This document shows, piece by piece, positions 2,600-21,993 of a stretch of DNA of 64,000 nt. A program made the position numbers and the translations under genes. Below the pieces are notes generated by a model that saw only the letters and a list, made by a program, of their open reading frames with translations, made no database searches and had not been told where the DNA came from. The stretch is taken from the NCBI GenBank assembly GCA_037189525.1, contig JBBCJC010000002.1, positions 576,001-640,000 on the forward strand, read 5' to 3'. The DNA comes from Gemmatimonadales bacterium. Lineage in GTDB: Bacteria > Gemmatimonadota > Gemmatimonadetes > Gemmatimonadales > GWC2-71-9. Numbering within the stretch: position 1 is the first letter of the stretch; every line of letters starts with the position of its first letter.

Positions 2600-3598
2600 C
2601 TACCCTCGCCGGGGGCGAAGCCGGCTTTGGGACAATCGGTTTCGCGTTTCCGCCACCAGAGTCTGCACGATCGTGGCGGCGGGCGCCGTCTCCCGAATCA
2701 GGCCGACGCTCTGGCCGGCGTAGAGCGCGAGGTCGGCCGCGTTGCCCGTGGTGGCAGGCCGAGGAATGGTGTCCTCGTAGCGTTGCACCGGTTTCCCGTC
2801 GGTCTGGGCAATGATCTCTCCCTCACCGGGGCGATGGGGCGCCAGAGGCCGGCCCGCCGCTTCCCACCGCGCGACGGTTTCATTGCGGAGAGTCCGGTGC
2901 GGCGCGTCGGGCCAGCCGATATCGAACAGGCTCGAGTAGACCGTATCCGTTTCGGCGGCGGCCAGAATCCGATCGCGATAGATCGGATGGATCTCGGCCT
3001 CGTCGGCCGCCAGGAATCGGGTGCCGAGCCATCCCGCCTGCGCACCGAGCGTAATCGCCGCCGCGAGACCGCGTCCGTCGGCAATACCCCCGGCGGCCAC
3101 GACCGGCGTCGGGCCGATCGCATCGACCACCGCCGGTACCAGGATCATGGTCGACACCTCACCGCAGACGTGGCCGCCGGCTTCCCAGCCTTGGGCCACG
3201 ATGGCGTCGGCGCCCGCATCGCGGGCCTGAACGGCGCCGGCCACCGATCCGACGGTGCAGAGGACCATGGCGTTGGAGCGTTGGGCGACCGTGATATATG
3301 GTACGGGGTCGCCCCAAGCCAGTGAAATGATCCGGATCTTTTCTTCGAGGACCACGGCCAGGCGCTCCTGCTGATCCCAGGCCAGGACGAGATTGACGCC
3401 GAAGGGCCGCCGGGTCAGGCGGCGGGTGGCCCGGATCAGGGTCCGGATCTGGTCGGGCGACCGCCAGCTCAGGGCCAGCATGCCGAGCCCGCCGGCATTC
3501 GACACGGCCGCGGCGAGCGCCGGGGTGGTGGCGCTCCCGATCGGCGCCTGGATGATCGGGTACGAAATGCGTAATTGGCGACAGAGGGGCGTTCGCAT
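2600..3598 (-). CDS. nitronate monooxygenase family flavoprotein
   Basis: PIIQAPI, AAAVSNAGGLG, QGWEAGGH, AAGGIADGRG, GTRF, LYAGQSVG; start set at MRTPLC. Confidence 0.9.
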   Translation of the reverse strand: MRTPLCRQLRISYPIIQAPIGSATTPALAAAVSNAGGLGMLALSWRSPDQIRTLIRATRRLTRRPFGVNLVLAWDQQERLAVVLEEKIRIISLAWGDPVPYITVAQRSNAMVLCTVGSVAGAVQARDAGADAIVAQGWEAGGHVCGEVSTMILVPAVVDAIGPTPVVAAGGIADGRGLAAAITLGAQAGWLGTRFLAADEAEIHPIYRDRILAAAETDTVYSSLFDIGWPDAPHRTLRNETVARWEAAGRPLAPHRPGEGEIIAQTDGKPVQRYEDTIPRPATTGNAADLALYAGQSVGLIRETAPAATIVQTLVAETRNRLSQSRLRPRRG

Positions 3599-3804
3599 GA
3601 TTCGGGGGAATCTACGTCGGGCGGTCACGGCCCGTACCCCGGACCGCGCCGTCGTTCCGGGTTTGCGTCGTCCCGGTGCGTCCCCTACTATCCCGCGACG
3701 TCCGTAATCCGCTGGAAACCGGCGCCAGGAAGCGCCCGGTCGAGCCGGCGGACTGATCGGACCCGTGTCCGACGCCGATGTTTCATCCGCCTGGGGAGGT
3801 CGTA

Positions 3805-4782
3805 ATGCGCGCGATTCAGGTGCACGAGTTCGGGGATCCATCCGTGCTCAAACTGGTCGACGTGCCCACTCCGGTGCCCGGACCGGGCCAGGTGCTGGTG
3901 GCCGTCCAGGCGATCGGCGTGAATCCCGCGGAGACCTACATGCGGAGCGGGCGGTATGCGCTGCTGCCGGCGCTGCCCTACACGCCGGGATCGGACGGTG
4001 CCGGCATCATCCGGCAGGTCGGCCCCGGGGTGACCGAATGGAAGGAGAACGACCGGGTCTTCTTTCACGGCACGGCGGCAGGGCGGTCGTTTGGTGCGTA
4101 CGCGGAAATGGCGGTCTGCGAGGCTTATCAGGTCTTTCGGTTGCCGGCCAACATCGGCTTTTCCGAAGGCGCGGCCATCCCGATTCCCTATGCGACGGCG
4201 TATCGGGCTCTCTTCGGCAAGGCCGCTGCGCAGCCCGGCGAGATCGTGCTGATCCACGGCGCCAGCGGTGGGGTCGGCATTGCCGCCGTGCAACTGGCCC
4301 GCTGGAAACAGCTGCGGGTCATCGGTACGGCGGGCACGTCCGAAGGCCTCGATCTGGTGCGGGCCAACGGTGCGCACCTTGCGGTGAGCCACAAGGGCGC
4401 GCTCTATCTGGATCAGGTGCGGGACGCGGCCAACCAGGGGCGCGGGCCGGACGTGATCCTCGAGATGCTCGCCAACGTCAATCTCGATCACGATCTCGAT
4501 GTCCTCGCGCCGAAGGGGCGGATCGTCATCATCGGGAATCGCGGCCGGATCGAGATCGATCCGCGCAAGATCATGTCGAAGGACGCGGCCGTGCTCGGCG
4601 TGATGCTCTGGAACGACTCGCCGGAGGCGCTGGCGCCGGTCTTTCGGGATCTGATTCGCGGGCTGGAAGAGGGGGTGCTGGTGCCGGTGGTCGGGCGGGA
4701 AATCCCGTTGGCGGAAGCGGCGCGCGCCCACGATGCCGTGCTCGAGCCCGGGGCCTACGGCAAGATCGTGCTGATTCCGTAA
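3805..4782 (+). CDS. NADPH:quinone reductase (zeta-crystallin/MDR family)
   Basis: GVNPAETY, PYTPGSDGAG, HGASGGVG, GKIVL; GGAGG RBS before ATG 3805. Confidence 0.9.
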   Translation: MRAIQVHEFGDPSVLKLVDVPTPVPGPGQVLVAVQAIGVNPAETYMRSGRYALLPALPYTPGSDGAGIIRQVGPGVTEWKENDRVFFHGTAAGRSFGAYAEMAVCEAYQVFRLPANIGFSEGAAIPIPYATAYRALFGKAAAQPGEIVLIHGASGGVGIAAVQLARWKQLRVIGTAGTSEGLDLVRANGAHLAVSHKGALYLDQVRDAANQGRGPDVILEMLANVNLDHDLDVLAPKGRIVIIGNRGRIEIDPRKIMSKDAAVLGVMLWNDSPEALAPVFRDLIRGLEEGVLVPVVGREIPLAEAARAHDAVLEPGAYGKIVLIP

Positions 4783-4821
4783 AAACAGCGACGCGCCGGA
4801 CCGGGGGATCCGACGCGTCGC
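4781..4821 (-). terminator. intrinsic terminator on the minus strand (may also serve the convergent quinone reductase)
   Basis: GCGACGCGUCGGAUC-CCCC-GGUCCGGCGCGUCGC, 15-bp stem including G-U pairs, followed by UGUUUUU. Confidence 0.75.
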
Positions 4822-4900
4822 CAGGGAAGTTGGGCTCGGCCCTGGGGGGACAGGGACGCACCCGGGAAGGTGAGCGCCGGGTCAACGAACCGCCGCTCGC
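4781..4900 (-). ncRNA. candidate small RNA with C-rich hairpin loops
   Basis: Lies between a sigma54-like promoter (4911-4927) and a minus-strand intrinsic terminator; four stem-loops, three with CCC-rich loops. Confidence 0.55.
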
Positions 4901-4910
4901 CCCTCACAAA

Positions 4911-4927
4911 GGCAAGCGATGTGCCGA
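4911..4927 (-). promoter_or_regulatory. sigma54 (-24/-12) promoter candidate
   Basis: Minus strand TCGGCAC-ATCGC-TTGCC; GG and GC exactly 12 nt apart. Confidence 0.6.
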
Positions 4928-5081
4928 TGTCTCCCTTCGAATCACGATTTCATAAATCATTTCGTCGCAATAAGTTAATGAGTTCATAGCGCGGGCGCCC
5001 GTGCCCGGCCTGCCGAGGTTGTCGCTGTGCTCACGCCATGGTGTGGCTCAGATTCGACGCCGGTACACGCGAGGGGGATAC

Positions 5082-6242
5082 ATGATCGGTCGCTGGATGC
5101 TGGGGATCCTGCTTGTCGGCGTCGGCGGGGCGGAGTTGTCGGGTCAGGGCGCGAGACCGCGGGCGCGCGAGCTCGGAGTCGCCCCGGGCATCTTTGCGCC
5201 GGGTGCGCTCAACGCGATTACCGATGTAGGCGGGGTGCGGGTTGGCCAGGTCACCGTGATCGAGGGCGACTCGGTGCGCACCGGAATCACCGCCATCCTG
5301 CCGCACGAGGGCAATGTCTTTCTCGATCGCGTGCCCGCCGCGATCGCGGTCGGAAACGGGTACGGCAAGCTGCTCGGCGTGACCCAGGTCGCGGAGTTGG
5401 GTGAGATCGAAACCCCGATTCTGCTGACCTGCACGCTCTGCGTCTGGAAGGCGGCCGATGCCATGGTGGCGTGGCTGCTCGAACAGCCGGGGATGGAAGA
5501 CGTGGGTTCCATCAATGCGCTGGTGGGCGAAACCAACGATGGCGGCCTCAACGCCATTCGTCTCCGGCCGATCAGCCCGGCCCAGGTGCGCACGGCGCTG
5601 ACGTCCGCCCGGAGCGGACCGGTCGAGGAGGGGGCCGTGGGTGCCGGCGCCGGTACCGTGGCATTTGGATGGAAGGGCGGCATCGGGACCTCCTCCCGCC
5701 GACTGCCGGCCTCACTCGGCGGCTGGACCGTGGGTGTGCTGGTGCAGAGCAACTATGGCGGCGTCTTCCAGGTGATGGGCGTGCCCATCGGGCGCGAGTT
5801 GGGCCAGTACTCCTACCGGCGGAACGTGGAGGAACGGTCCGGTGACGGATCGATCATGATCGTGGTGGCGACCGATGCGCCGGTCGACGATCGCAGCTTG
5901 CGGCGGATCGCCAGCCGCGCATTGCTGGGGCTGGGCAATACGGGCAGTTCGATGAGCAACGGCTCGGGCGACTACGTGATTGCCTTTGCAACGCATCCGT
6001 CGGTTCGTCGCGGCCATCCCGACCGGGCTGCGCGGCGGGATTCGATCGAAACCGGCCGTCGTCTGCTCACCAACCCGGAACTGTCACCGCTCTTTGCCGC
6101 AACCGCGGAAGCGACCGAAGAGGCGATCTACAACTCCCTCTTCAAGGCTGTCACCGTCACCACTCGGAAAGGTACGGTCGAAGCCCTGCCGATCGACCGG
6201 GTGCGCGAGTTGTTGTCGCGCTATGGCGCGGCCAAACGCTGA
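5082..6242 (+). CDS. DmpA/P1 family L-aminopeptidase/D-esterase, secreted
   Basis: NAITDVGGVRVG, GNGYGKLLG, GETNDGGLN, GWKGGIGTSSR, DGSI autocleavage motif, NGSGDY; signal peptide. Confidence 0.92.
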   Translation: MIGRWMLGILLVGVGGAELSGQGARPRARELGVAPGIFAPGALNAITDVGGVRVGQVTVIEGDSVRTGITAILPHEGNVFLDRVPAAIAVGNGYGKLLGVTQVAELGEIETPILLTCTLCVWKAADAMVAWLLEQPGMEDVGSINALVGETNDGGLNAIRLRPISPAQVRTALTSARSGPVEEGAVGAGAGTVAFGWKGGIGTSSRRLPASLGGWTVGVLVQSNYGGVFQVMGVPIGRELGQYSYRRNVEERSGDGSIMIVVATDAPVDDRSLRRIASRALLGLGNTGSSMSNGSGDYVIAFATHPSVRRGHPDRAARRDSIETGRRLLTNPELSPLFAATAEATEEAIYNSLFKAVTVTTRKGTVEALPIDRVRELLSRYGAAKR

Positions 6243-6604
6243 GACCCGCCCAGAGCAAATCCGGCGGCGGTCGCCCCCAGGCTCAGGAGCACGCTGGCCA
6301 CGACATAGAACGCCGCGCTGCTCCAGGCCCCGGTGCGCAGCAGCTCGAGCGTTTCGGCGCTGAAGGCCGAGAATGTGGTGTAGCCGCCGCAGAGGCCCAC
6401 CGTCAGAAACACCCGGGCTTCCGCGCTCAGGCCCGGTGAACCCACGGCATATCGGAGTATCAAACCGATCAGGAAGGACCCGGTCACGTTGACGACCAGG
6501 GTACCGAGGGGAAAGGAACTGCCGGTCATGCGCTGGACGCCCGTGGTCACCAGATACCGGGCCAGACCGCCGAGACCGCTGCCGATCAGGACGTAGAGCC
6601 ACAT
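6221..6604 (-). CDS. crcB: fluoride efflux channel Fluc/CrcB
   Basis: GGLARY, FPLGTLVVNVTGSF, GLCGGYTTFSAF. Confidence 0.95.
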   Translation of the reverse strand: MWLYVLIGSGLGGLARYLVTTGVQRMTGSSFPLGTLVVNVTGSFLIGLILRYAVGSPGLSAEARVFLTVGLCGGYTTFSAFSAETLELLRTGAWSSAAFYVVASVLLSLGATAAGFALGGSQRLAAP

Positions 6605-6649: not shown

Positions 6650-7135
6650 CTAGAGCTTGAAGGTTTGGGGCGGCGGGCCGGCGAGGATCTGATGGATGGC
6701 TGCAATGACGCTGTCGTCGTCGCTCAGCAGCACCAGCTCGGCGCCGCGCGCGGTGGAGCGCACGGTACAGCGGAGCGCTCCCCGGTTTCCTGCCAGCACC
6801 TGCACGGCCGCTCCCTCGTTCGGGATGAAACGAACGTTGCGATAGTCGCCACGGCGGATGGCTGCCGCACTTTCGATCAGATGAGCCCGAAGCCCCTCGA
6901 GGCCGGCGGAGTCCGGACGCTGCAGGGACAGGGCAATCCGTCCCCCACTTTCATTCGCGGTGTATTCGACCACGGGGGCGGGCCGCGCAGTCGCTGCCAG
7001 GGCAACGGTTTGGGCGGCGCCCGGACGCGCGGTCTGGAGCAGCATCAGCGCGGCGACGATGCCGGACCAGCGGATGATGCCGGCCCGGGGTGCGGGTGCG
7101 GAATGGGATTTTGATCGGGTCGTCATCTGAGTCAC
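6650..7135 (-). CDS. hypothetical exported protein
   Basis: 161-aa ORF with hydrophobic signal-like N-terminus; fills the gap between genes. Confidence 0.6.
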   Translation of the reverse strand: MTQMTTRSKSHSAPAPRAGIIRWSGIVAALMLLQTARPGAAQTVALAATARPAPVVEYTANESGGRIALSLQRPDSAGLEGLRAHLIESAAAIRRGDYRNVRFIPNEGAAVQVLAGNRGALRCTVRSTARGAELVLLSDDDSVIAAIHQILAGPPPQTFKL

Positions 7136-7210
7136 ACCTCTTGGCCGACGGGACGCAGCGCAAGAGGGGTGCCATCAGAGTCAGTCGCGGTTAGGAGCCA
7201 ACGAGAGCGG

Positions 7211-7972
7211 TCAGTGACCTGCGAAGGCGCGGGAGGCCGCCACCAGTTCGTCGAACAGGCGGCCGGTCCTGGGGTCCTTGGTTTCCAGCGTTTCCGGGTG
7301 CCATTGGACGCCCACCACGAAGGGCGGGGCGTCCAGCTCCACCGCCTCCACCGTGCCGTCCGGCGCCCGGGCGGAGGCCACCAGATCGCGCCCAAGGCGA
7401 TTGACCCCCTGGTGATGCATGCTGTTGACCGCAATCGAGGGCGCCTCGAAAATGCGGGCCAGCCGAGTACCGGCCTCGAGGGTCACATCGTGGGCCAGGT
7501 GGTCGCGTGCGAACCCGGCGGTCGGGAAATAGTCGTGCTTGATCGCGTCGGGCACCAGTGCTTCCAGATCCTGAAAGAGCGATCCGCCCTGCGCGACGTT
7601 GATGATCTGATGGCCGCGACAGAGCCCCAGCACCGGTTTGCCGTCGGCAATGGCCCACCGCGCCAGAGTCAGTTCGACGGTATCGCGCGCCGGATCGATG
7701 TTGCCCAGCTTAGGGTGCGGTGTTTCACCGTAGGTAGCCGGATCCAAGTCGACGCCGCCGGCAATCAGCAGTCCGTCGAGCCGCTGGTAGATGCAGCGCA
7801 GCGTATCGAGGTCGTCGTGCAGCAGCGGCACCATCCAGGGCACCGCCCCCGATTCGGTTGCTGCGTAGTAGTAGCGCTGATTCATGACCCAGGACGCCGG
7901 CAGGCCTTCGGGAATGCCATCGATGGCGTGTAGCGTCTGGGTCGGAATGCCGATTGTCGGTCGGTAGCTCAT
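7211..7972 (-). CDS. gamma-glutamyl-gamma-aminobutyrate hydrolase family (peptidase C26, class I GATase fold)
   Basis: LDGLLIAGGVDLDP, LGLCRGHQ nucleophile elbow, VNSMHHQGV, GVQWHPE. Confidence 0.92.
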   Translation of the reverse strand: MSYRPTIGIPTQTLHAIDGIPEGLPASWVMNQRYYYAATESGAVPWMVPLLHDDLDTLRCIYQRLDGLLIAGGVDLDPATYGETPHPKLGNIDPARDTVELTLARWAIADGKPVLGLCRGHQIINVAQGGSLFQDLEALVPDAIKHDYFPTAGFARDHLAHDVTLEAGTRLARIFEAPSIAVNSMHHQGVNRLGRDLVASARAPDGTVEAVELDAPPFVVGVQWHPETLETKDPRTGRLFDELVAASRAFAGH

Positions 7973-8051
7973 AGCCGGATAAAATAACGGTGTCGTGAAA
8001 GCGTTCCTGTCAGGGGGCGGTCCGCGATAATCGGGCCACGAGCCGCCCGGC

Positions 8052-9164
8052 TTACGGAATCACACCCTCGGCCGTCTCGCGGATCAGGTGGTCGACAACG
8101 GCCTTGTAGTCGCCGCCGGAGGCCTCGAATACCGCCAGTTGCCGGTCGGCACTGGTGCCCTCCTCCAGGATCTTGTAAGCGTACTCGACTTCCTTGCGGC
8201 TGCCCAGCTCGTCGACCACGTCGCCGATGAACCACTCGAGCAGCTCGCGGATCAACTCGCGAGCGGGAAGCTGTTTGCTCTTGCCGAAGTCGATCAGCTG
8301 CCCGTCCAGTCCGTAGCGGCAGGCGCGCCACTTGTTCTCTTCGATGAACGCGGCGGGATACTGGCGCCAGCTGAGATTGTCTCTGCGCAGCTTCCAGACC
8401 TTGGCAACGATGGCCTGAAAGACGGCGGCGATACAGACGGCTTCGTCGACCCGGGTGCAGACGTCGCAGATCCGCATCTCGAGGGTCGGATAGGTCCAAC
8501 TGGGGCGGACATCCCACCAGAGTTTCGAGGCGTTGGGAATGCTGCCGGTGTCGACCAGCGTATTGACCACGGCCTCGAACTCATCCCAGTTGGACAGGCC
8601 GCGCGGGATGCCGGTGCGCGGGAAGCTGCGGAAAATGATGCTGCGGTACGACTTGAGCCCCGTCTTCCTGCCCAGCCAGAAGGGAGAACTGGTGGAGAGG
8701 CAGAGGAGATGGGGCATCATGTAGCGCGCGGCGTTCATCGCTTCGATGCGGAACTCCTGGTCCTCGATCCCGACATGCACGTGGGTGCCGAAGATCAGGA
8801 GCCGCTGTGCCAGCTCCTGCAGATCCTGCTTGACGCCCATGTAGCGGTCGAGCGGGGTGATTTCCTGGTCGAGCCAGTTCGAGAAGGGATGACTGCCGGC
8901 AGCCACCACCTTGAGTCCTCGGCGGGCCGCGAGGTCGATCACCAGGCGGCGCAGGCGAATCAATTCCTGCTTGGCTTCGGCCGGCGTGTGGCAGACCTTG
9001 GTGCCGACCTCGACCATCGACTGATGGAGCTCGGGTTTGATCTCGCCCAAGATCACCGATTCCTCGGTCAGGATCTCGGTGATGTACGACCGGAGTTCGC
9101 GGGTCTCCGGGTCGATGATCTGGTACTCCTCTTCGATGCCGACGGTCAGGCTGGGCGCTTTCAT
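8052..9164 (-). CDS. carboxylate-amine ligase, YbdK/GCS2 family
   Basis: [60 protein letters not shown]. Confidence 0.92.
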
Positions 9165-9186
9165 ACGTCGATTGCTCGGCAGAGGT

Positions 9187-10536
9187 TCAGCTGCGTGGGT
9201 CCACGACGAAGGTAGGCACGGTCGAGCCGCCCCCCGCCGTGACATTGACGAGGGATGCGGACGAAATACGGGACAGACAGCCGTCGACGATGGCGCCGTC
9301 GAAACAGTAGGGCGCGGTATCGGTGATCCGGTCGGCGTAGACGACGCCACCGTCGACGTAACTCGGATACGGTTCCGAGGGCAATGCGATTCGCTGCTGC
9401 ACGATGTGGGGATGCTCGAGCGCGCGTTGAATGGTCGCCTGCCAGACCTCGGGCGTTGCCTCCCAGCCCAGCACGACCCCGGCGCCGCCGTAGTCGTCGT
9501 TAGGCTTGAGCACGAACTCGTCTTTCCTGTCGGCGATGTAGGGAACCAGATCGACCGACTTCCCCTCGTGCGTCGTGGTGCGCTCTTCGACCACCCGGGT
9601 CCACGGAACGTGCGCCGCAATAGCCTCGCGCTGGCCGGCCGAGAAGAGATGAGCGTTTCGCTCGTCGGAGAGCACGGCCAGACTGGCCTTCTTGTGAAGG
9701 ACCTTGCACCGGAACGGGTTGACCATGCAGACCGCGCGGTCGCGCACGGCGCGGACGATCGGGTGGTCCAGACCGCCGCGCTCGACCAGTTCGCTGATCA
9801 GGACGCGCTTGTAGATCAGATCGATGGCAACCCCGTCGACGTACAACCGTCCGTTCCGGTACTCGGCGTGGCGCGGGTCGCCGATGATGCACTTGTAGCC
9901 TAACGACGAGAAGTAGTCCTGAAAGAGCAGGAACTCGCTCATGGTCGGGACCTCGTTCCAGTCGAGGATCCCGATGGTCGGCTTGGCCCAGGTTCCGGCA
10001 AATTGCTGATAGGCGTCGAGCAGCGAATGCAGGGTATTGGCCCGCGCCGGCAACGGCGTCAGGGTAAACCGATGACGGAAGCTCCGCACGACCGGGAGCG
10101 CCAGAAACAGTTTGGTCAGCGCATCGTTGTACGCGGGACCGGCCGGACACTCACCGTTGTACTCGGTGACCCGGAGCGCGCCGTCACCGGGCGAGAAAAA
10201 CGCGTCGAGCCGCGTGAGCGGCGTAGCGTTGATGCCCGGATCCTCGAGCGCCAGGGTGCGCTCCCAGGGCTCGAGCCGGAACTGATCGAGCACGGCCGGG
10301 TCGGCCAGCGCCGCGTCGAGCGCGGCGCCAAGCGCACCAAGCAGGATGGGAATCCGCTCGGCAATGACGGCGTGCTGGGCCCGGCTCAGGAACCGTGGGC
10401 GAATCACGCTGCAGAGCGCGCGGTCGCCGAAGAAGAGTCCTCGCTTGCGCAGCTCCTCGTGCAGCCACTCCCCGGACTCGGCTCCGAGTCCCGGTGTCAG
10501 CGCCTCGTGCCACGCCGCAATGGCGGTTTCGGTCAT
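9187..10536 (-). CDS. circularly permuted ATP-grasp / glutathionylspermidine synthase-like ligase
   Basis: [56 protein letters not shown] overlap with the upstream gene. Confidence 0.8.
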
Positions 10537-11489
10537 CGCGGACCCGGGCGAACCGGACGTCCTTGCAGAAACTGCTCCCAACTCGGACGCCCCGGCGGCG
10601 TCGGCGCCTTCGCGAGCCGAATGGTCAGATCGGCCATGGCGCTCACGACCCATTCGAAGTGGGTCGGGGTGAGCGAATAGATGTCCATGTCGGGTGCCGG
10701 ATTCATGAAGTCGATGGCGTAGGGAATTCCGTCCCGGATGGCCCATTCCATCGAGTTCATGTCGTAACCGAGGGCGCGGACCAGCCGGAGCGAGTCGGCG
10801 ACGACGCGGTCATGCACGGCCTGCGGCAGGAAGTCGAGTTCCTGGTGATACTTGCGTTCCTTGGGATCGTACTTGATCGGATAGATCACTTCCTGCCCGA
10901 TAGCCAGGCAGCGCACGAACTCGTCCCACTCGATGAACTCCTGCACGATCATGGTGAGCAGGCCCGAGCGATCGTAGTGGTAGAGCAGTTCTTCCAGGCT
11001 TCGGCAGATGTAGACATCCCGCCACCCGCCGCCATGCGCGTCCTTGAGGACACAGGGGAGCCCGACGTAGTCGACGATGGCCTGCCAATCGAGCGGGAAG
11101 GCCAGGTTACGGAGGCTCTCGGTGTGCACGATGCCCGGCACATACTCCTTGTTGGGCAGCACCACCGTTTTGGGACTGGCCAGGCCCAGTGATGTCGCCA
11201 GGCTGGCGCCGAAGAACTTATCGTCGGCGGTCCACATGAACGGGTTATTGATGACCGTGGCGCCCTGGAGGACGGCGTACTTGAGGTACGTCCGATAGAA
11301 CGGCACTTCGTGAGAAATGCGGTCGATGATGACCTGGTAGGGCACCGGTCCGTCCATCCGAGGGGCATCCAGCGTGACGAACTCCGCCACGACGCCCTGG
11401 TCCCGATTGTTGACTTCCTCGATGAAGGCGGGCGGCCAGCTCCATTCGCGGCCGACGATCAGGCCGATCTTCTTGGGATCCGACGACAT
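10533..11489 (-). CDS. RimK-like ATP-grasp ligase
   Basis: IIDRISH, VINNPF..ADDKFF, PKTVVLP, LKDAHGGGWRDV, QEFI, IDFMNPAPD. Confidence 0.85.
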   Translation of the reverse strand: MSSDPKKIGLIVGREWSWPPAFIEEVNNRDQGVVAEFVTLDAPRMDGPVPYQVIIDRISHEVPFYRTYLKYAVLQGATVINNPFMWTADDKFFGASLATSLGLASPKTVVLPNKEYVPGIVHTESLRNLAFPLDWQAIVDYVGLPCVLKDAHGGGWRDVYICRSLEELLYHYDRSGLLTMIVQEFIEWDEFVRCLAIGQEVIYPIKYDPKERKYHQELDFLPQAVHDRVVADSLRLVRALGYDMNSMEWAIRDGIPYAIDFMNPAPDMDIYSLTPTHFEWVVSAMADLTIRLAKAPTPPGRPSWEQFLQGRPVRPGPR

Positions 11490-11570: not shown

Positions 11571-11906
11571 TCAATTCACCAGGGCCCGTTCCAGCGCGGC
11601 GACGACCGGCTCGATGTCTTCGGTGGCCACCCGCCACACGATATCAGGGTCGACGTCATCGTACCCGTGCACGATCCGGTTGCGCATCCCGATCATCTCG
11701 CCCCAGGGAAACTCGGGATGGTCGGCCCGGAAGTCTGCCGAGAGCCGGCTGGCGGCCTCGCCGAGCCGCTGGATGAGATGGAGCAACGCGAGCTGACGGA
11801 GCACATCGGTCGCGAACGCCTCGGGGGTGTGCCCGCGTACCAGGCTGCGAATCTGGCGTGCCGTGTCGAGCATCTGCTCCAGTGTGGCCCGGTCATCCCG
11901 CGGCAT
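11571..11906 (-). CDS. HepT-like HEPN ribonuclease toxin (DUF86)
   Basis: LGEAA, MRNRIVHGY (Rx4H motif with following Tyr), VDPDIVW; overlaps the upstream MNT gene. Confidence 0.9.
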   Translation of the reverse strand: MPRDDRATLEQMLDTARQIRSLVRGHTPEAFATDVLRQLALLHLIQRLGEAASRLSADFRADHPEFPWGEMIGMRNRIVHGYDDVDPDIVWRVATEDIEPVVAALERALVN

Positions 11907-12402
11907 AGAGCAGCCTCGCCGATGCCAGCACATGCCCTCGGACTCGCGGTGACAGCCCGCGGCGGGTCACCAGGTCGACTCGCCGGCCGCCAAATACGTT
12001 ACCCAGCGCCTCGGCGACCCGCACGATCCCGAACCCGGGTGTCTTTCCCGGCGCGAAGTCCACGATCACGTCCACGTCGCTGTCCGGGCGCGCCATGCCC
12101 CGTGCCTGGGAGCCGAACAGCGCTAGCCAGGTAATGTGGTGGCGACGACATGCCGCAGCCAGGGCATCGTGATCCAGGGCACTCACGAGGGGTACCGGGA
12201 GTTCGGGATCTGCCAGGTATGGAGGAGAGGCCGGTTCCCGGACCATCTGACCCGCCGGCGGGGGAACATCGTCGCGGGCGGCGTCATCCAGGATCGAGAG
12301 CAGCTCGCCGTTCAGGCTTCGACGATTGGCTGCGGCGCGGGCACGGAGTCGCTGCAGAGCGGCGTCCGGTACGCCCCGGATGGTCAGGGTACGTAAGGCC
12401 AT
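11893..12402 (-). CDS. MntA-like minimal nucleotidyltransferase antitoxin fused to an N-terminal FitA/Arc-like ribbon-helix-helix domain
   Basis: N-terminus TLTIRGVPDAALQRLRARAAANRRSLNGELLSIL; C-terminus LFGSQARGMARPDSDVD (GSx10DxD) and RRVDLV. Confidence 0.85.
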   Translation of the reverse strand: MALRTLTIRGVPDAALQRLRARAAANRRSLNGELLSILDDAARDDVPPPAGQMVREPASPPYLADPELPVPLVSALDHDALAAACRRHHITWLALFGSQARGMARPDSDVDVIVDFAPGKTPGFGIVRVAEALGNVFGGRRVDLVTRRGLSPRVRGHVLASARLLYAAG

Positions 12403-19671: not shown

Positions 19672-21993
19672 TCAATGGCGGTCGACCGTCCGGCGCAAAG
19701 CAATCCGCACGCCGCCGTTGACGGAACGGCCCTCGAGCAGGCTCCAGACATCGGTCGTCCACCGGCCCCCCTCGCCGCGGGTGGGGAGGACCAACGGATG
19801 AACCCGGGTCTGGCGAACGTTGGCCAGGTTCTCGCCGTTGATGAAAACACGAACCGAACCGAACTGCTGCTCAGCAAGCAATCCGACCACCAGATAGGGG
19901 CGGCTTTCCCGGCGATAGGGGTTCTGCTCGAGCGCCTGCTTCCCGGTGTAGTACAGCTCCAGGCCGATTCGGCTTTTCCCTTCGTCCTCCACACTCGCGA
20001 CCATGCCGACCGCGTGGCGTGGCGTGAGCGGGGTGACTCGGCGAAGACAGCTGCCGCTGCCGGCGCCGGGATCGCATTCGGTGCCCCGCAGATGGGTGTA
20101 GGTCGCGGTGATGCGAAGCGCGCGACCGCCATGGTGATCCGGCTCGGCGTCGGCATGCTCATCGCCCTCGTCGTCGTCGCCGTCCAACTGATGGACCAGC
20201 CTGACCAGGACTTCGCCGCCCCACATCCTGGTCGGTTCGCTCGCGTTGACCAGCTGCAGACGGCCGGCGCCGCCGGGCGCCGTGCCGATCGCCTCCTCGA
20301 CCTGAACCGGATGGCGCACCTGCGAGGCGAACAGGGTGCCGTTGAGTTCGAGTCTGCCCAGCGCCGTCGCGACCGGCCCCCCGATATCGAGCGACAGATT
20401 GCGAGCCCGTTCGGCAACGAGACCCTCGGGCGGAAGCAGCGGCGTCAAGCCGGTGACTTCGGTCACCTCCGTGAACGGCGTCGGGGCAAACGCACCCGTC
20501 CCGCCCGACAGTCGGGCCGTCCATCCTGCCCAGGCCGCGTCTTCGGTCGGCCGGCGCAACAGCAGCGAGACCCGCGGATTGAGAAACGTGCCGTACACGT
20601 TGTGCCGGTCGACGCGGCCGCTGGCCGACAGCGCAAGCCACGGAGCCGGGTCGAGGTCCACCTGCGCAAATGCCGCGGGAATAGTATGGGTGTAGTCGAA
20701 GGCGGGGACGTCGCTGGCCCGATACGCATCGCTCTGGACGGCCGCGCCGGCGACATAGGTGACCGGCCCTCGCGGAACGGTAATCGCTGCCTCCGTAAAG
20801 AAGGTCCGATGCCGGTCGTCTTCGCCGATGACGCCGAAGCGATGGGCATGCCGCTGCTCCATGGCTGAGCCGCGGACCGACACGATGGAGCCCTCCAGGG
20901 CGCCGGCCGGTACGACCCACCGGGCCAGGCCGCCCAGGTCGGCACGGTAGGTCCGCAGCGACTCCACGAAGGCCTGTCCGTCGGGCGCGGTCCGTCCCGT
21001 CAGCGTGCCGCCGTCGCGCTGTTCGGCGGTGAAGCCCGCGGTAATGAAGGCGCTCCGTCCGCGGTCGTCGCTGAAGTAGAAGCGGGGACGAACCACGGCG
21101 CGTCGATAGCCGGGCATGTCGGTCCAGCCGTCGGCGTCGAGGTCGTTGCGCGCCTGCCGATGGGCGCCGGCGAGCAGCGAGTAGCCCCAGCGCGAGGATA
21201 GGGGTGCCGCGCTGTAGAAGACCGCATCGGAGCCGCCCCGCGACGTCTGATTGAGGATCAGGGTGGCTTCCGGGTCGGTTCCGGGACGGCGTGAGATCAG
21301 GTTGACGACGCCCCCCAGCGCCGCGCTGCCGTAGAGCGCCGAGACCGAACCTTTGATGATCTCGACTCGACCCAGGTCGACGGGCGGAATCTGCAGCAGG
21401 CCGAGCCCGCCTGCCTGGCCCCCGTAGAGGGGGAGTCCGTCAGCGAGCAGCAGCGAGTAGCGGCCTGACAGTCCCTGGATTCGGACGTTGGCTCCGCCCA
21501 ACGAAGGCGACGTGGTCTGAACCCGGAGTCCGGCGGTTTCGTTGAGCATCATGGCGATGTCGCCGGGCGTCATCGCGATCTTCTCGCCGATCTCTTCCTC
21601 GTCGATGACCTCGACGCGGAGCGGCGTATCCTCGACCCGCCGCTCGCTGCGCGTGGCGCTGACGACGAGTTCGTCGAGTTCGGCCTGCAGGGTCTCGAGT
21701 GCGATGGTGAACGTCGTATCCTGTCCGCTCCGAAGCACGATGCTCGACGTGTCCGGCCGGAACCCGATGCGTGATACCATGACCGTGTGGTGCCCGGCAG
21801 GCAGGCGCAGTATCGCCCTGCCGTCCGCGTCGGTCTGGTGGACCTGGCGACCACTCCGTACCACGGCCGCCTCGACCGGACGGGCGTCATGTTCGATCCG
21901 GATGTGGGCGGTTGCGAGCGAGTCGACGCTCTGGGCGGACAGCAGTGTCGGAATCGCTGAGGAGAGGATCAGTGTGAGGCAGCCCAATCTCAC
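19672..21993 (-). CDS. TonB-dependent outer-membrane receptor
   Basis: ELVVSATR, plug motifs RIQG..GRY and [25 protein letters not shown], barrel end NGENL; start uncertain (GTG 21993). Confidence 0.88.

What the first reader, a model, noticed from the sequence alone, without database searches (positions are those of the whole stretch)
4781..4927. Candidate sigma54-dependent small RNA with repeated C-rich loops
Seen on the minus strand of a 300-bp intergenic gap: a -24/-12 element (TCGGCAC-N5-TTGCC) predicting a start near 4900, then ~120 nt of stem-loops. These are GAGCG..CGCUC, CACCU-UCCC-GGGUG, CCCUG-UCCCCC-CAGGG, a single-stranded AACUUCCCU, and a 15-bp terminator stem with a CCCC loop plus U tract. 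The terminator faces away from both flanking genes, which are on +, so it implies its own transcript. Known: exposed UCCC/CCUCC loops are anti-Shine-Dalgarno seeds in base-pairing sRNAs such as RsaE and the cuckoo RNAs. Inference: a translation-repressing sRNA of a family I do not recognise.
Basis: partly seen in the sequence, partly recalled or inferred. Interest (0 to 1): 0.8.

Follow-up and report, generated by a model that had tools for sequence, protein, structure and literature searches.

The report
Sigma54 small RNA with C-rich loops
A non-coding unit with a sigma54-type promoter motif and hairpins carrying runs of C is conserved in 19 of 22 genomes of one Gemmatimonadota genus and matches no Rfam family; it likely makes a small RNA that is predicted to block translation by pairing with G-rich ribosome-binding sites, with targets still unproven.

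Summary
Real feature. A covariance model finds the element in 19 of 22 genomes of the genus, always convergent behind the same quinone oxidoreductase gene and always with a -24/-12 motif. The RNA part is far more conserved than the adjacent spacer or silent sites, its stems show compensatory changes, and the end hairpin folds better on the minus strand in 19 of 19. No Rfam match; not Pxr. Forms: about 120 nt with three hairpins, a derived 75-80 nt form with two, and one complete loss. New: a conserved upstream palindrome, and no Hfq or ProQ found in this genome. Best reading: a chaperone-independent repressor working like sX13 or 6C RNA. Expression is unshown. No broad G-run regulon was detected; the only HU/IHF gene is a weak, post-hoc target lead. 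Not found outside the genus. The scan noted the same design in other lineages, but not this family.

The parts
5020..5047 (-). Candidate upstream activator site: half-sites GCCACA (5047-5042) and GCGACA (5025-5020); in most relatives an inverted pair GC[CG]ACA-N4-6-TGT[CG]GC at the same distance
   Evidence: Score of at least 10/12 in 14 of 19 loci at -145..-100 against 0-1 of 19 in eight other windows; this genome scores only 9/12. Also 11/12 in two metagenome loci not used to define it. Role inferred.
4940..4988 (-). A+T-rich spacer, possible DNA-bend (HU/IHF-type) region
   Evidence: 18 of 25 bases A/T in a 66% G+C genome; best match to the recalled IHF consensus 8 of 9 here but 5-8 in the 16 loci scored; sequence not conserved. 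Weak.
4911..4927 (-). Sigma54-type -24/-12 promoter motif TCGGCAC-N5-TTGCC
   Evidence: Present in 19 of 19 loci; rpoN present in the genome
4781..4900 (-). Predicted small RNA, about 120 nt (ends inferred)
4872..4898 (-). Hairpin 1: a hairpin is predicted here in every member, sequence and loop vary freely
4864..4871 (-). Linker 1, ACCUUCCC, single-stranded and pyrimidine-rich
4832..4863 (-). Hairpin 2 with UCCCCC loop (4850-4845); absent from the four short forms
4823..4831 (-). Linker 2, AACUUCCCU; a run of three or more C is kept here in all 19 members
4781..4822 (-). Hairpin 3 (terminator-like) with C4 loop (4806-4803) and U tract (4785-4781); loop-proximal stem sequence nearly invariant
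3805..4782 (+). Convergent neighbour: NAD(P)H quinone oxidoreductase-like zinc-type dehydrogenase; its stop codon abuts the U tract
   Evidence: Pfam ADH_N/ADH_zinc_N; TIGR02824 below cut-off; same position in 19 of 19 loci
5082..6242 (+). Divergent neighbour: peptidase family S58; not a fixed partner
   Evidence: full length in 14 of 19 loci, a fragment in 1, absent in 4

Best explanation
This is a conserved non-coding unit that likely makes a 75-125-nt small RNA from a sigma54-type promoter, and its unpaired C runs are predicted to pair, without Hfq, with G-rich stretches at ribosome-binding sites of other mRNAs and so would repress their translation. Shown: the motif, the conservation, the compensatory changes, the C runs, no Hfq or ProQ match. 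Inferred: an NtrC-type activator binds the palindrome about 125 bp upstream and switches the promoter on under an unknown signal; the RNA folds into two or three hairpins and ends at hairpin 3; two to four C runs give multivalent G:C pairing on one or several mRNAs. The best target lead is the mRNA of the genome's only HU/IHF-family protein (about 15-20%).
For: Strong model hits in 19 of 22 genus genomes, 6 of them outside the 13 training sequences; promoter motif and convergent oxidoreductase in 19 of 19. RNA identity 80-98% against 54-83% for the spacer and 45-85% for fourfold sites in 9 genome pairs. 9 of 20 stem pairs change on both sides, 98.3% of cells paired against 32-47% in slid controls. 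End hairpin more stable on minus in 19 of 19. Only C runs are kept in loops and linkers while hairpin 1 is free in sequence. No Hfq or ProQ match in a 98% complete genome. Precedent: sX13 (115 nt, three stems with C-rich loops, Hfq dispensable, G-rich motifs required; PMC3771888, passages) and 6C RNA (C loops bind panD and dnaB leaders without a chaperone; PMC6486639, passages). G5 is about twice as frequent at -20..-1 as elsewhere (87 of 3501 genes against 22-69 in ten other windows).
Against: No transcript data. G5 ribosome sites were kept in only 2 of 20 cases among 1000 orthologue pairs (odds ratio 5.6, against 6.0 for GGAGG), so no broad regulon signal. Single-genome target energies are weak and flat (best -10 kcal/mol, 2171 of the 3747 called genes scored). 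The HU/IHF lead was picked after the fact; its G run also stands in 4 of 6 genomes of other genera where the RNA was not found and in the genome that lost it, has a cis partner CCC just upstream in 23 of 26, and gives net energies of only -1.8 to -6.9 kcal/mol in 17 of 18 genomes. The neighbouring carA gene shows that a G run (G4 in 24 of 26) can be conserved with a cis partner alone. The upstream palindrome survives intact in G013, which has no promoter or RNA. The four short forms have no U tract.
Confidence: 0.6

Rival explanations
1. The RNA is real but works as a protein-binding decoy or scaffold: repeated C runs on stems titrate a C-binding protein (for example a KH-domain protein or Rho), and the invariant stem of hairpin 3 is a protein site.
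For: Repeated identical motifs are typical of sponge RNAs, several of which are sigma54-driven (CrcZ, GlmY; recalled). Seven of 15 pairs of hairpin 3 never vary, more than folding alone needs. No target regulon found.
Against: No exposed GGA loops or A-rich stretches of the known sponges (sequence). C-loop RNAs that were tested act through G-rich mRNA motifs. No candidate protein identified.
Confidence: 0.2
2. The RNA pairs with G-rich RNA but not to repress initiation: it sponges another small RNA, opens a leader hairpin to activate translation, or acts inside coding regions.
For: Conserved G-run leaders (HU/IHF, carA) are folded back on cis C runs, which a C-rich RNA could compete with; G-run ribosome sites show no extra conservation.
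Against: Binding the G run of the HU/IHF leader would cover the ribosome site itself; no G-rich partner RNA was looked for or seen.
Confidence: 0.12
3. No independent RNA: hairpin 3 is only the 3' end signal of the convergent oxidoreductase mRNA, and the promoter drives antisense transcription into that gene.
For: Fixed position directly behind the stop codon in 19 of 19; U tract weak or absent in several members, so read-through is possible.
Against: G-U pairs work on the minus strand only (19 of 19); no plus-strand U tract; hairpin 2 and the C runs are conserved and would be needless; G013 keeps the gene without the element, and two more distant homologues of the gene have no promoter motif behind them.
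Confidence: 0.06
4. It encodes a small peptide.
For: A GTG at 4906-4904 on the minus strand opens a frame through the region (sequence).
Against: That codon lies upstream of the predicted +1; no conserved start; promoter-to-hairpin distance takes values from 65 to 117 without keeping frame; changes compensate pairs.
Confidence: 0.02

Closest known systems
sX13 of Xanthomonas (PMC3771888; abstract and passages read)
   Same: About 115-120 nt, three stems, C4-C5 loops, high-G+C host, no need of Hfq; G-rich motifs near start codons are the expected targets.
   Different: No Rfam match at all for this element; hairpin 1 is not C-rich here and C runs also lie in linkers; sigma54-type promoter with upstream palindrome; host has no hfq match, Xanthomonas has hfq.
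Pxr of Myxococcus and relatives (Rfam RF01812; PMC5684412 first of four parts read; PMC5568312 and PMC11928866 passages)
   Same: Predicted sigma54 promoter with upstream enhancer, about 110-120 nt, three hairpins, C-run loop, conserved stem segment in the last hairpin, narrow taxonomic range, two-hairpin variants.
   Different: No match to RF01812 at this locus; in the Pxr consensus the C loop is in hairpin 1 and the last loop is U-rich, the reverse of here; pxr lies behind its activator gene, this one has no activator among the six nearest other genes scanned.
6C RNA of Actinobacteria (PMC6486639; passages read)
   Same: Two adjacent hairpins with C-run loops in a host without Hfq or ProQ; G:C-rich loop pairing.
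   Different: No Rfam match; different phylum; sigma54-type promoter; short forms keep only one C-loop hairpin plus a C-run linker.
RepG/HPnc5490 of Helicobacter pylori (seen only as a passage in PMC3771888; rest recalled), RsaE (PMC2790875, search listing only) and cuckoo RNAs (recalled)
   Same: Unpaired C-rich motif used as the seed; in RepG it is the terminator loop (recalled).
   Different: RsaE/cuckoo motifs (UCCC, CCUCC) mimic the anti-Shine-Dalgarno; here the kept feature is a plain C4-C7 run. No Rfam match.

Membership tests
Any Rfam 15 family | Covariance-model match at the gathering score | tested here: not met
   Window 3500-6500: three chance hits with E of 1.6 or more, none on the RNA body; seven orthologous loci and one look-alike: 0 hits at E<=1
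Pxr (RF01812) | Sequence/structure match to the model | tested here: not met
   Own genome: best 26.9 bits (cut-off 80), elsewhere in the genome; nothing at this locus
Pxr (RF01812) | Sigma54 promoter and three hairpins | tested here: met
   Motif in 19 of 19; three hairpins in 15 of 19; promoter activity itself untested
Pxr (RF01812) | C-run loop in hairpin 1 | tested here: not met
   Hairpin 1 loop is GUU/GAGA/UUCG/CAU and the like in most members; a C run there in G018 and partly G001; Pxr consensus
Pxr (RF01812) | Directly downstream of pxrK/pxrR, same enhancer | tested here: inconclusive
   No activator gene adjacent. Enhancers could not be compared: no Pxr locus was retrieved from 151 genomes of a myxobacterial group
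sX13-type C-loop sRNAs (functional class) | Several unpaired C4-C5 motifs on stable stems | tested here: met
sX13-type C-loop sRNAs (functional class) | Independence of Hfq | tested here: met
   No Hfq or ProQ match in the 98% complete own genome; other genomes not searched
sX13-type C-loop sRNAs (functional class) | Represses mRNAs with G-rich motifs near the start | tested here: inconclusive
   G5 enriched about twofold at ribosome sites but not conserved in excess; one weak lead
sX13-type C-loop sRNAs (functional class) | Expressed as a discrete RNA | not testable with these tools
   No RNA run was listed
RsaE/cuckoo anti-SD sRNAs | Repeated conserved UCCC or CCUCC(UCCC) motif (definition recalled) | tested here: inconclusive
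   UCCC occurs at the start of most C runs, but CCUCC only in some members; no model match

The most novel reading that the evidence does not exclude
The RNA is a sigma54-driven repressor of the cell's only HU/IHF-family protein, so an enhancer-activated RNA would tune the nucleoid protein that sigma54 promoters, its own included, need for DNA looping: a feedback loop not seen in the papers searched. It would be one case of a design (sigma54 promoter, private enhancer, poly-C loops, no Hfq) that arose repeatedly in myxobacteria, planctomycetes and Gemmatimonadota.
Probability: 0.15. Interest if true: 0.68.

Novelty: new member of a known kind. Interest (0 to 1): 0.42.

Why it matters
Gemmatimonadota are mostly known from assembled genomes, and four literature searches listed no paper whose title or abstract start described a small regulatory RNA in them. 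This gives a well-delimited family with promoter, candidate enhancer, natural truncation and natural loss, so it is directly testable on reporters. It adds a phylum to the list where poly-C loops appear to replace Hfq. Its reach is limited: one genus, unknown signal, unproven targets, and a mechanism with good precedent.

Tried and rejected
Expression: no RNA holder listed for window 4300-5400; this is no evidence either way. Paralogues in the own genome: none (blastn/nhmmer; model, next hit E 0.8). Outside the genus: model search of 151 family genomes gave six weak hits (E 2e-4 to 7e-3), none with the layout (only 20 candidates scored per genome, so distant members can be missed); promoter-plus-loop pattern in 401 family genomes gave 17 matches, 10 outside the genus, of which 4 were inspected and none had the layout; hairpin word in 301 phylum genomes gave 22 matches, 20 inspected, promoter motif in 5 of 5 genus loci and 0 of 15 others; 24 viral matches, none above 21 bits. 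A generic promoter-plus-C6 pattern matched 34 of 151 family genomes at about the rate of its reversed control, so it shows no wider class; those loci could not be inspected. Pxr enhancer comparison failed for lack of a Pxr locus. A regulon for the palindrome: 3 intergenic sites of 25 in the own genome, none with a sigma54 motif; in 2.4 Mb of G016 only the RNA's own site of 13. Activator: not identified; three of 11 activators have orthologues in G008 but not in G013, which has only 4, too unspecific. Flanking genes as targets: G5 at the start in 5 of 16 peptidase-side starts and 0 of 18 oxidoreductase starts, rejected. A genome-wide rate of G-run sites in a genus without the RNA was not measured, which leaves open whether the twofold enrichment is linked to the RNA. 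Scripts 32, 76 and 98 stopped with errors after partial output; numbers quoted come from the rows printed (16 of 19 loci, 9 of 10 pairs).

Full report
Observation. The minus strand of the 299-bp gap 4783-5081 carries TCGGCAC-N5-TTGCC at 4927-4911, which puts +1 near 4900 by the usual sigma54 spacing (established knowledge), followed by 120 nt that fold well (z -3.4; 1 of 200 shuffles) and end in a terminator-like hairpin found on the minus strand only. The promoter motif alone is common (24 YGGCAC-N5-TTGC sites in the genome). The genome has rpoN and 19 matches to the sigma54-activator domain; 11 were examined as NtrC-like proteins, 6 with GAFTGA and 2 with GSFTGA.

Conservation. BLAST of 4770-5000 against 60 relatives gave 88-90% identity in two genomes that began at the promoter and ended at the U tract. 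Of the 21 loci returned I kept 13 that held the end hairpin; all 13 had the -24/-12 motif 65-115 nt upstream. A model built from them hit 19 of 22 genus genomes at E of 4e-15 or better, 6 of them new; all 19 have the promoter motif and the convergent oxidoreductase, whereas the upstream peptidase gene is complete in 14, a fragment in 1 and absent in 4. Of the three without a strong hit, G019 (87% complete) has the oxidoreductase cut by a contig end, G020 (84%) has no close match to it, and G013 (97%, 3.1 Mb) has the gene but lacks promoter and RNA. In nine genome pairs the RNA is 80-98% identical, the spacer above the promoter 54-83% and fourfold sites of the oxidoreductase 45-85%. On the 15 long forms, 98.3% of cells in 20 stem pairs are paired and 9 pairs change on both sides; slid controls reach 32-47% and 0 of 500 shuffles reach the observed values (shuffles ignore kinship; hairpin 1 and the outer stem of hairpin 2 were left out because they do not align). 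The end hairpin is more stable on the minus strand in 19 of 19, owing to G-U pairs. An oxidoreductase tree groups the four 75-80-nt forms and G013 in one clade (100/100) nested among long forms, so hairpin 2 was probably lost once and the whole unit later.

Range. A scan of 185,579 genomes for the hairpin word alone returned 32 loci; the 11 titled Gemmatimonadota all had the promoter motif 64-114 nt upstream and the oxidoreductase, 0 of the 21 others did. These 11 overlap the set from which the word was drawn, so they fix the lineage rather than add independent support. A partial metagenome scan (18 of 64 parts, 119 loci) added two loci with one new short-form sequence. Searches of family, phylum and viral collections found no member outside the genus, with limited sensitivity. 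Two oxidoreductase homologues of another genus (54-57% identity) have no promoter motif behind them.

Upstream site. An inverted pair GC[CG]ACA-N4-6-TGT[CG]GC lies 120-140 bp above the promoter: at least 10/12 in 14 of 19 loci against 0-1 of 19 in eight control windows (the motif was defined on these loci), and 11/12 in the two metagenome loci. It stays when the upstream gene changes, and its third position varies without compensation, which fits a protein site better than a hairpin. Against: the spacer varies from 4 to 6, this genome's clade scores 8-9 and has two direct half-sites instead, and G013 keeps a perfect copy without promoter. No other sigma54 promoter shares it, and the activator was not identified.

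Mechanism. What is kept in unpaired positions is C runs: hairpin 2 loop, linker 2, hairpin 3 loop and often linker 1. No Hfq or ProQ match was found, and the U tail is short or, in short forms, absent. This is the anatomy of sX13, which represses mRNAs with G-rich motifs near the start without Hfq (PMC3771888, passages; note that compensatory mutants did not restore regulation there), and of 6C RNA, which binds G-rich leaders without a chaperone (PMC6486639, passages). I therefore commit to pairing with G-rich ribosome sites (0.6). Target tests were mostly negative. With my own gene calls (3747 genes), G5 occurs at -20..-1 in 87 of 3501 genes against 22-69 in other windows, but G5 also pairs with the anti-Shine-Dalgarno through one G-U pair, so this is expected without any RNA. 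Among 1000 orthologue pairs between this genome and 2.4 of about 3.9 Mb of G016, G5 was kept in 2 of 20 (odds ratio 5.6) and GGAGG in 30 of 96 (6.0). A simple seed-plus-accessibility scan of 2171 genes gave flat scores. One pair had G6 in both genomes: the only HU/IHF-family gene. Its site has G5-6 in 21 of 21 genus loci, 4 of 6 other genera of the family and 0 of 3 from another family (30 of 44 matches inspected). It is a lead only: chosen after the fact, present where the RNA was not found, explained in part by a cis CCC partner in 23 of 26, paralleled by a cis-paired G4 at carA in 24 of 26, and weak in net energy (-3.2 kcal/mol here; -1.8 to -6.9 in 17 of 18; -14.4 in G002).

Comparison. 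No Rfam family matches. Pxr shares the predicted sigma54 promoter, enhancer, size, three hairpins and narrow range (PMC5684412, first of four parts; PMC5568312, passages; its targets are still unconfirmed, PMC11928866, passages), but the model does not match, the C loop sits in a different hairpin and no activator gene is adjacent. So it likely works like the sX13/6C class and is wired like Pxr, without being a member of either. No supplements were read; small-RNA or motif lists in supplements, and subscription papers, could hold this element. Searches for Gemmatimonad + small RNA, Gemmatimonas + sRNA + transcriptome, sigma54 + small RNA + C-rich + ribosome binding site, Gemmatimonadota + non-coding RNA + motif and small RNA + hupB + C-rich + translation listed nothing on it; I saw listings only. 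The scan's notes have no look-alike of this stretch but describe the same design in planctomycetes, myxobacteria, Bdellovibrionales and another Gemmatimonadota family (unchecked, sequences not available to compare). One of them prompted the regulon test, which was negative here.

Verdict. A real, uncatalogued, genus-level small-RNA gene (about 0.9 that it is transcribed as a discrete RNA), a new member of a known kind. Interest 0.42.

Noticed in passing
L272:1400-1560 (minus; G023:C66, about 21250-21360): A second genus has a similar design at an unrelated locus: sigma54 motif, a hairpin with a C7 loop, a long end hairpin and U tract, about 90 nt; 28 bits to model R1, no Rfam hit, genus has one genome only. 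Analogue or distant relative.
   Followed up: partly
L249:1410-1520 (G000:C3, upstream of 700434): Leader of the only HU/IHF-family gene: TACTAT/TAGTAT box, a variable hairpin, then a conserved CCC-loop-G5/6 element over the ribosome site; kept across the family. Could be a cis control element.
   Followed up: partly
G000:C3:699220-699250 (carA-like start, in L249): GGGGCGCUC before the start codon pairs with GAGCGCCCC in codons 3-5; kept in most of 26 loci, a conserved hairpin over the start.
   Followed up: partly
L110:2475-2650: G013 shows nested deletions: truncated crcB remnant, intact palindrome, promoter and RNA gone; it also has only 4 sigma54 activators against 11 in its close relative G008.
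   Followed up: partly
window 7158-7173 (minus): A canonical TGGCAC-N5-TTGC motif 128 bp before a 130-160-aa gene without Pfam match (6650-7135) that is conserved next to crcB in the genus.
   Followed up: no
window 11571-12402 (minus): Gene pair that looks like a nucleotidyltransferase with an N-terminal ribbon-helix-helix-like part plus a DUF86/HepT-like protein (MNT-HEPN type toxin-antitoxin); label from recall of the translation, not scanned.
   Followed up: no
window 7211-11489 (minus): Cluster of a C26 glutamine amidotransferase with what look like a carboxylate-amine ligase and two ATP-grasp-type proteins (recalled from translations).
   Followed up: no
G000:C5:291651 (minus): A promoter motif nearly identical to the RNA's (17 of 18 bases) 39 bp before a gene near the flagellar cluster, without the upstream half-sites.
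   Followed up: no
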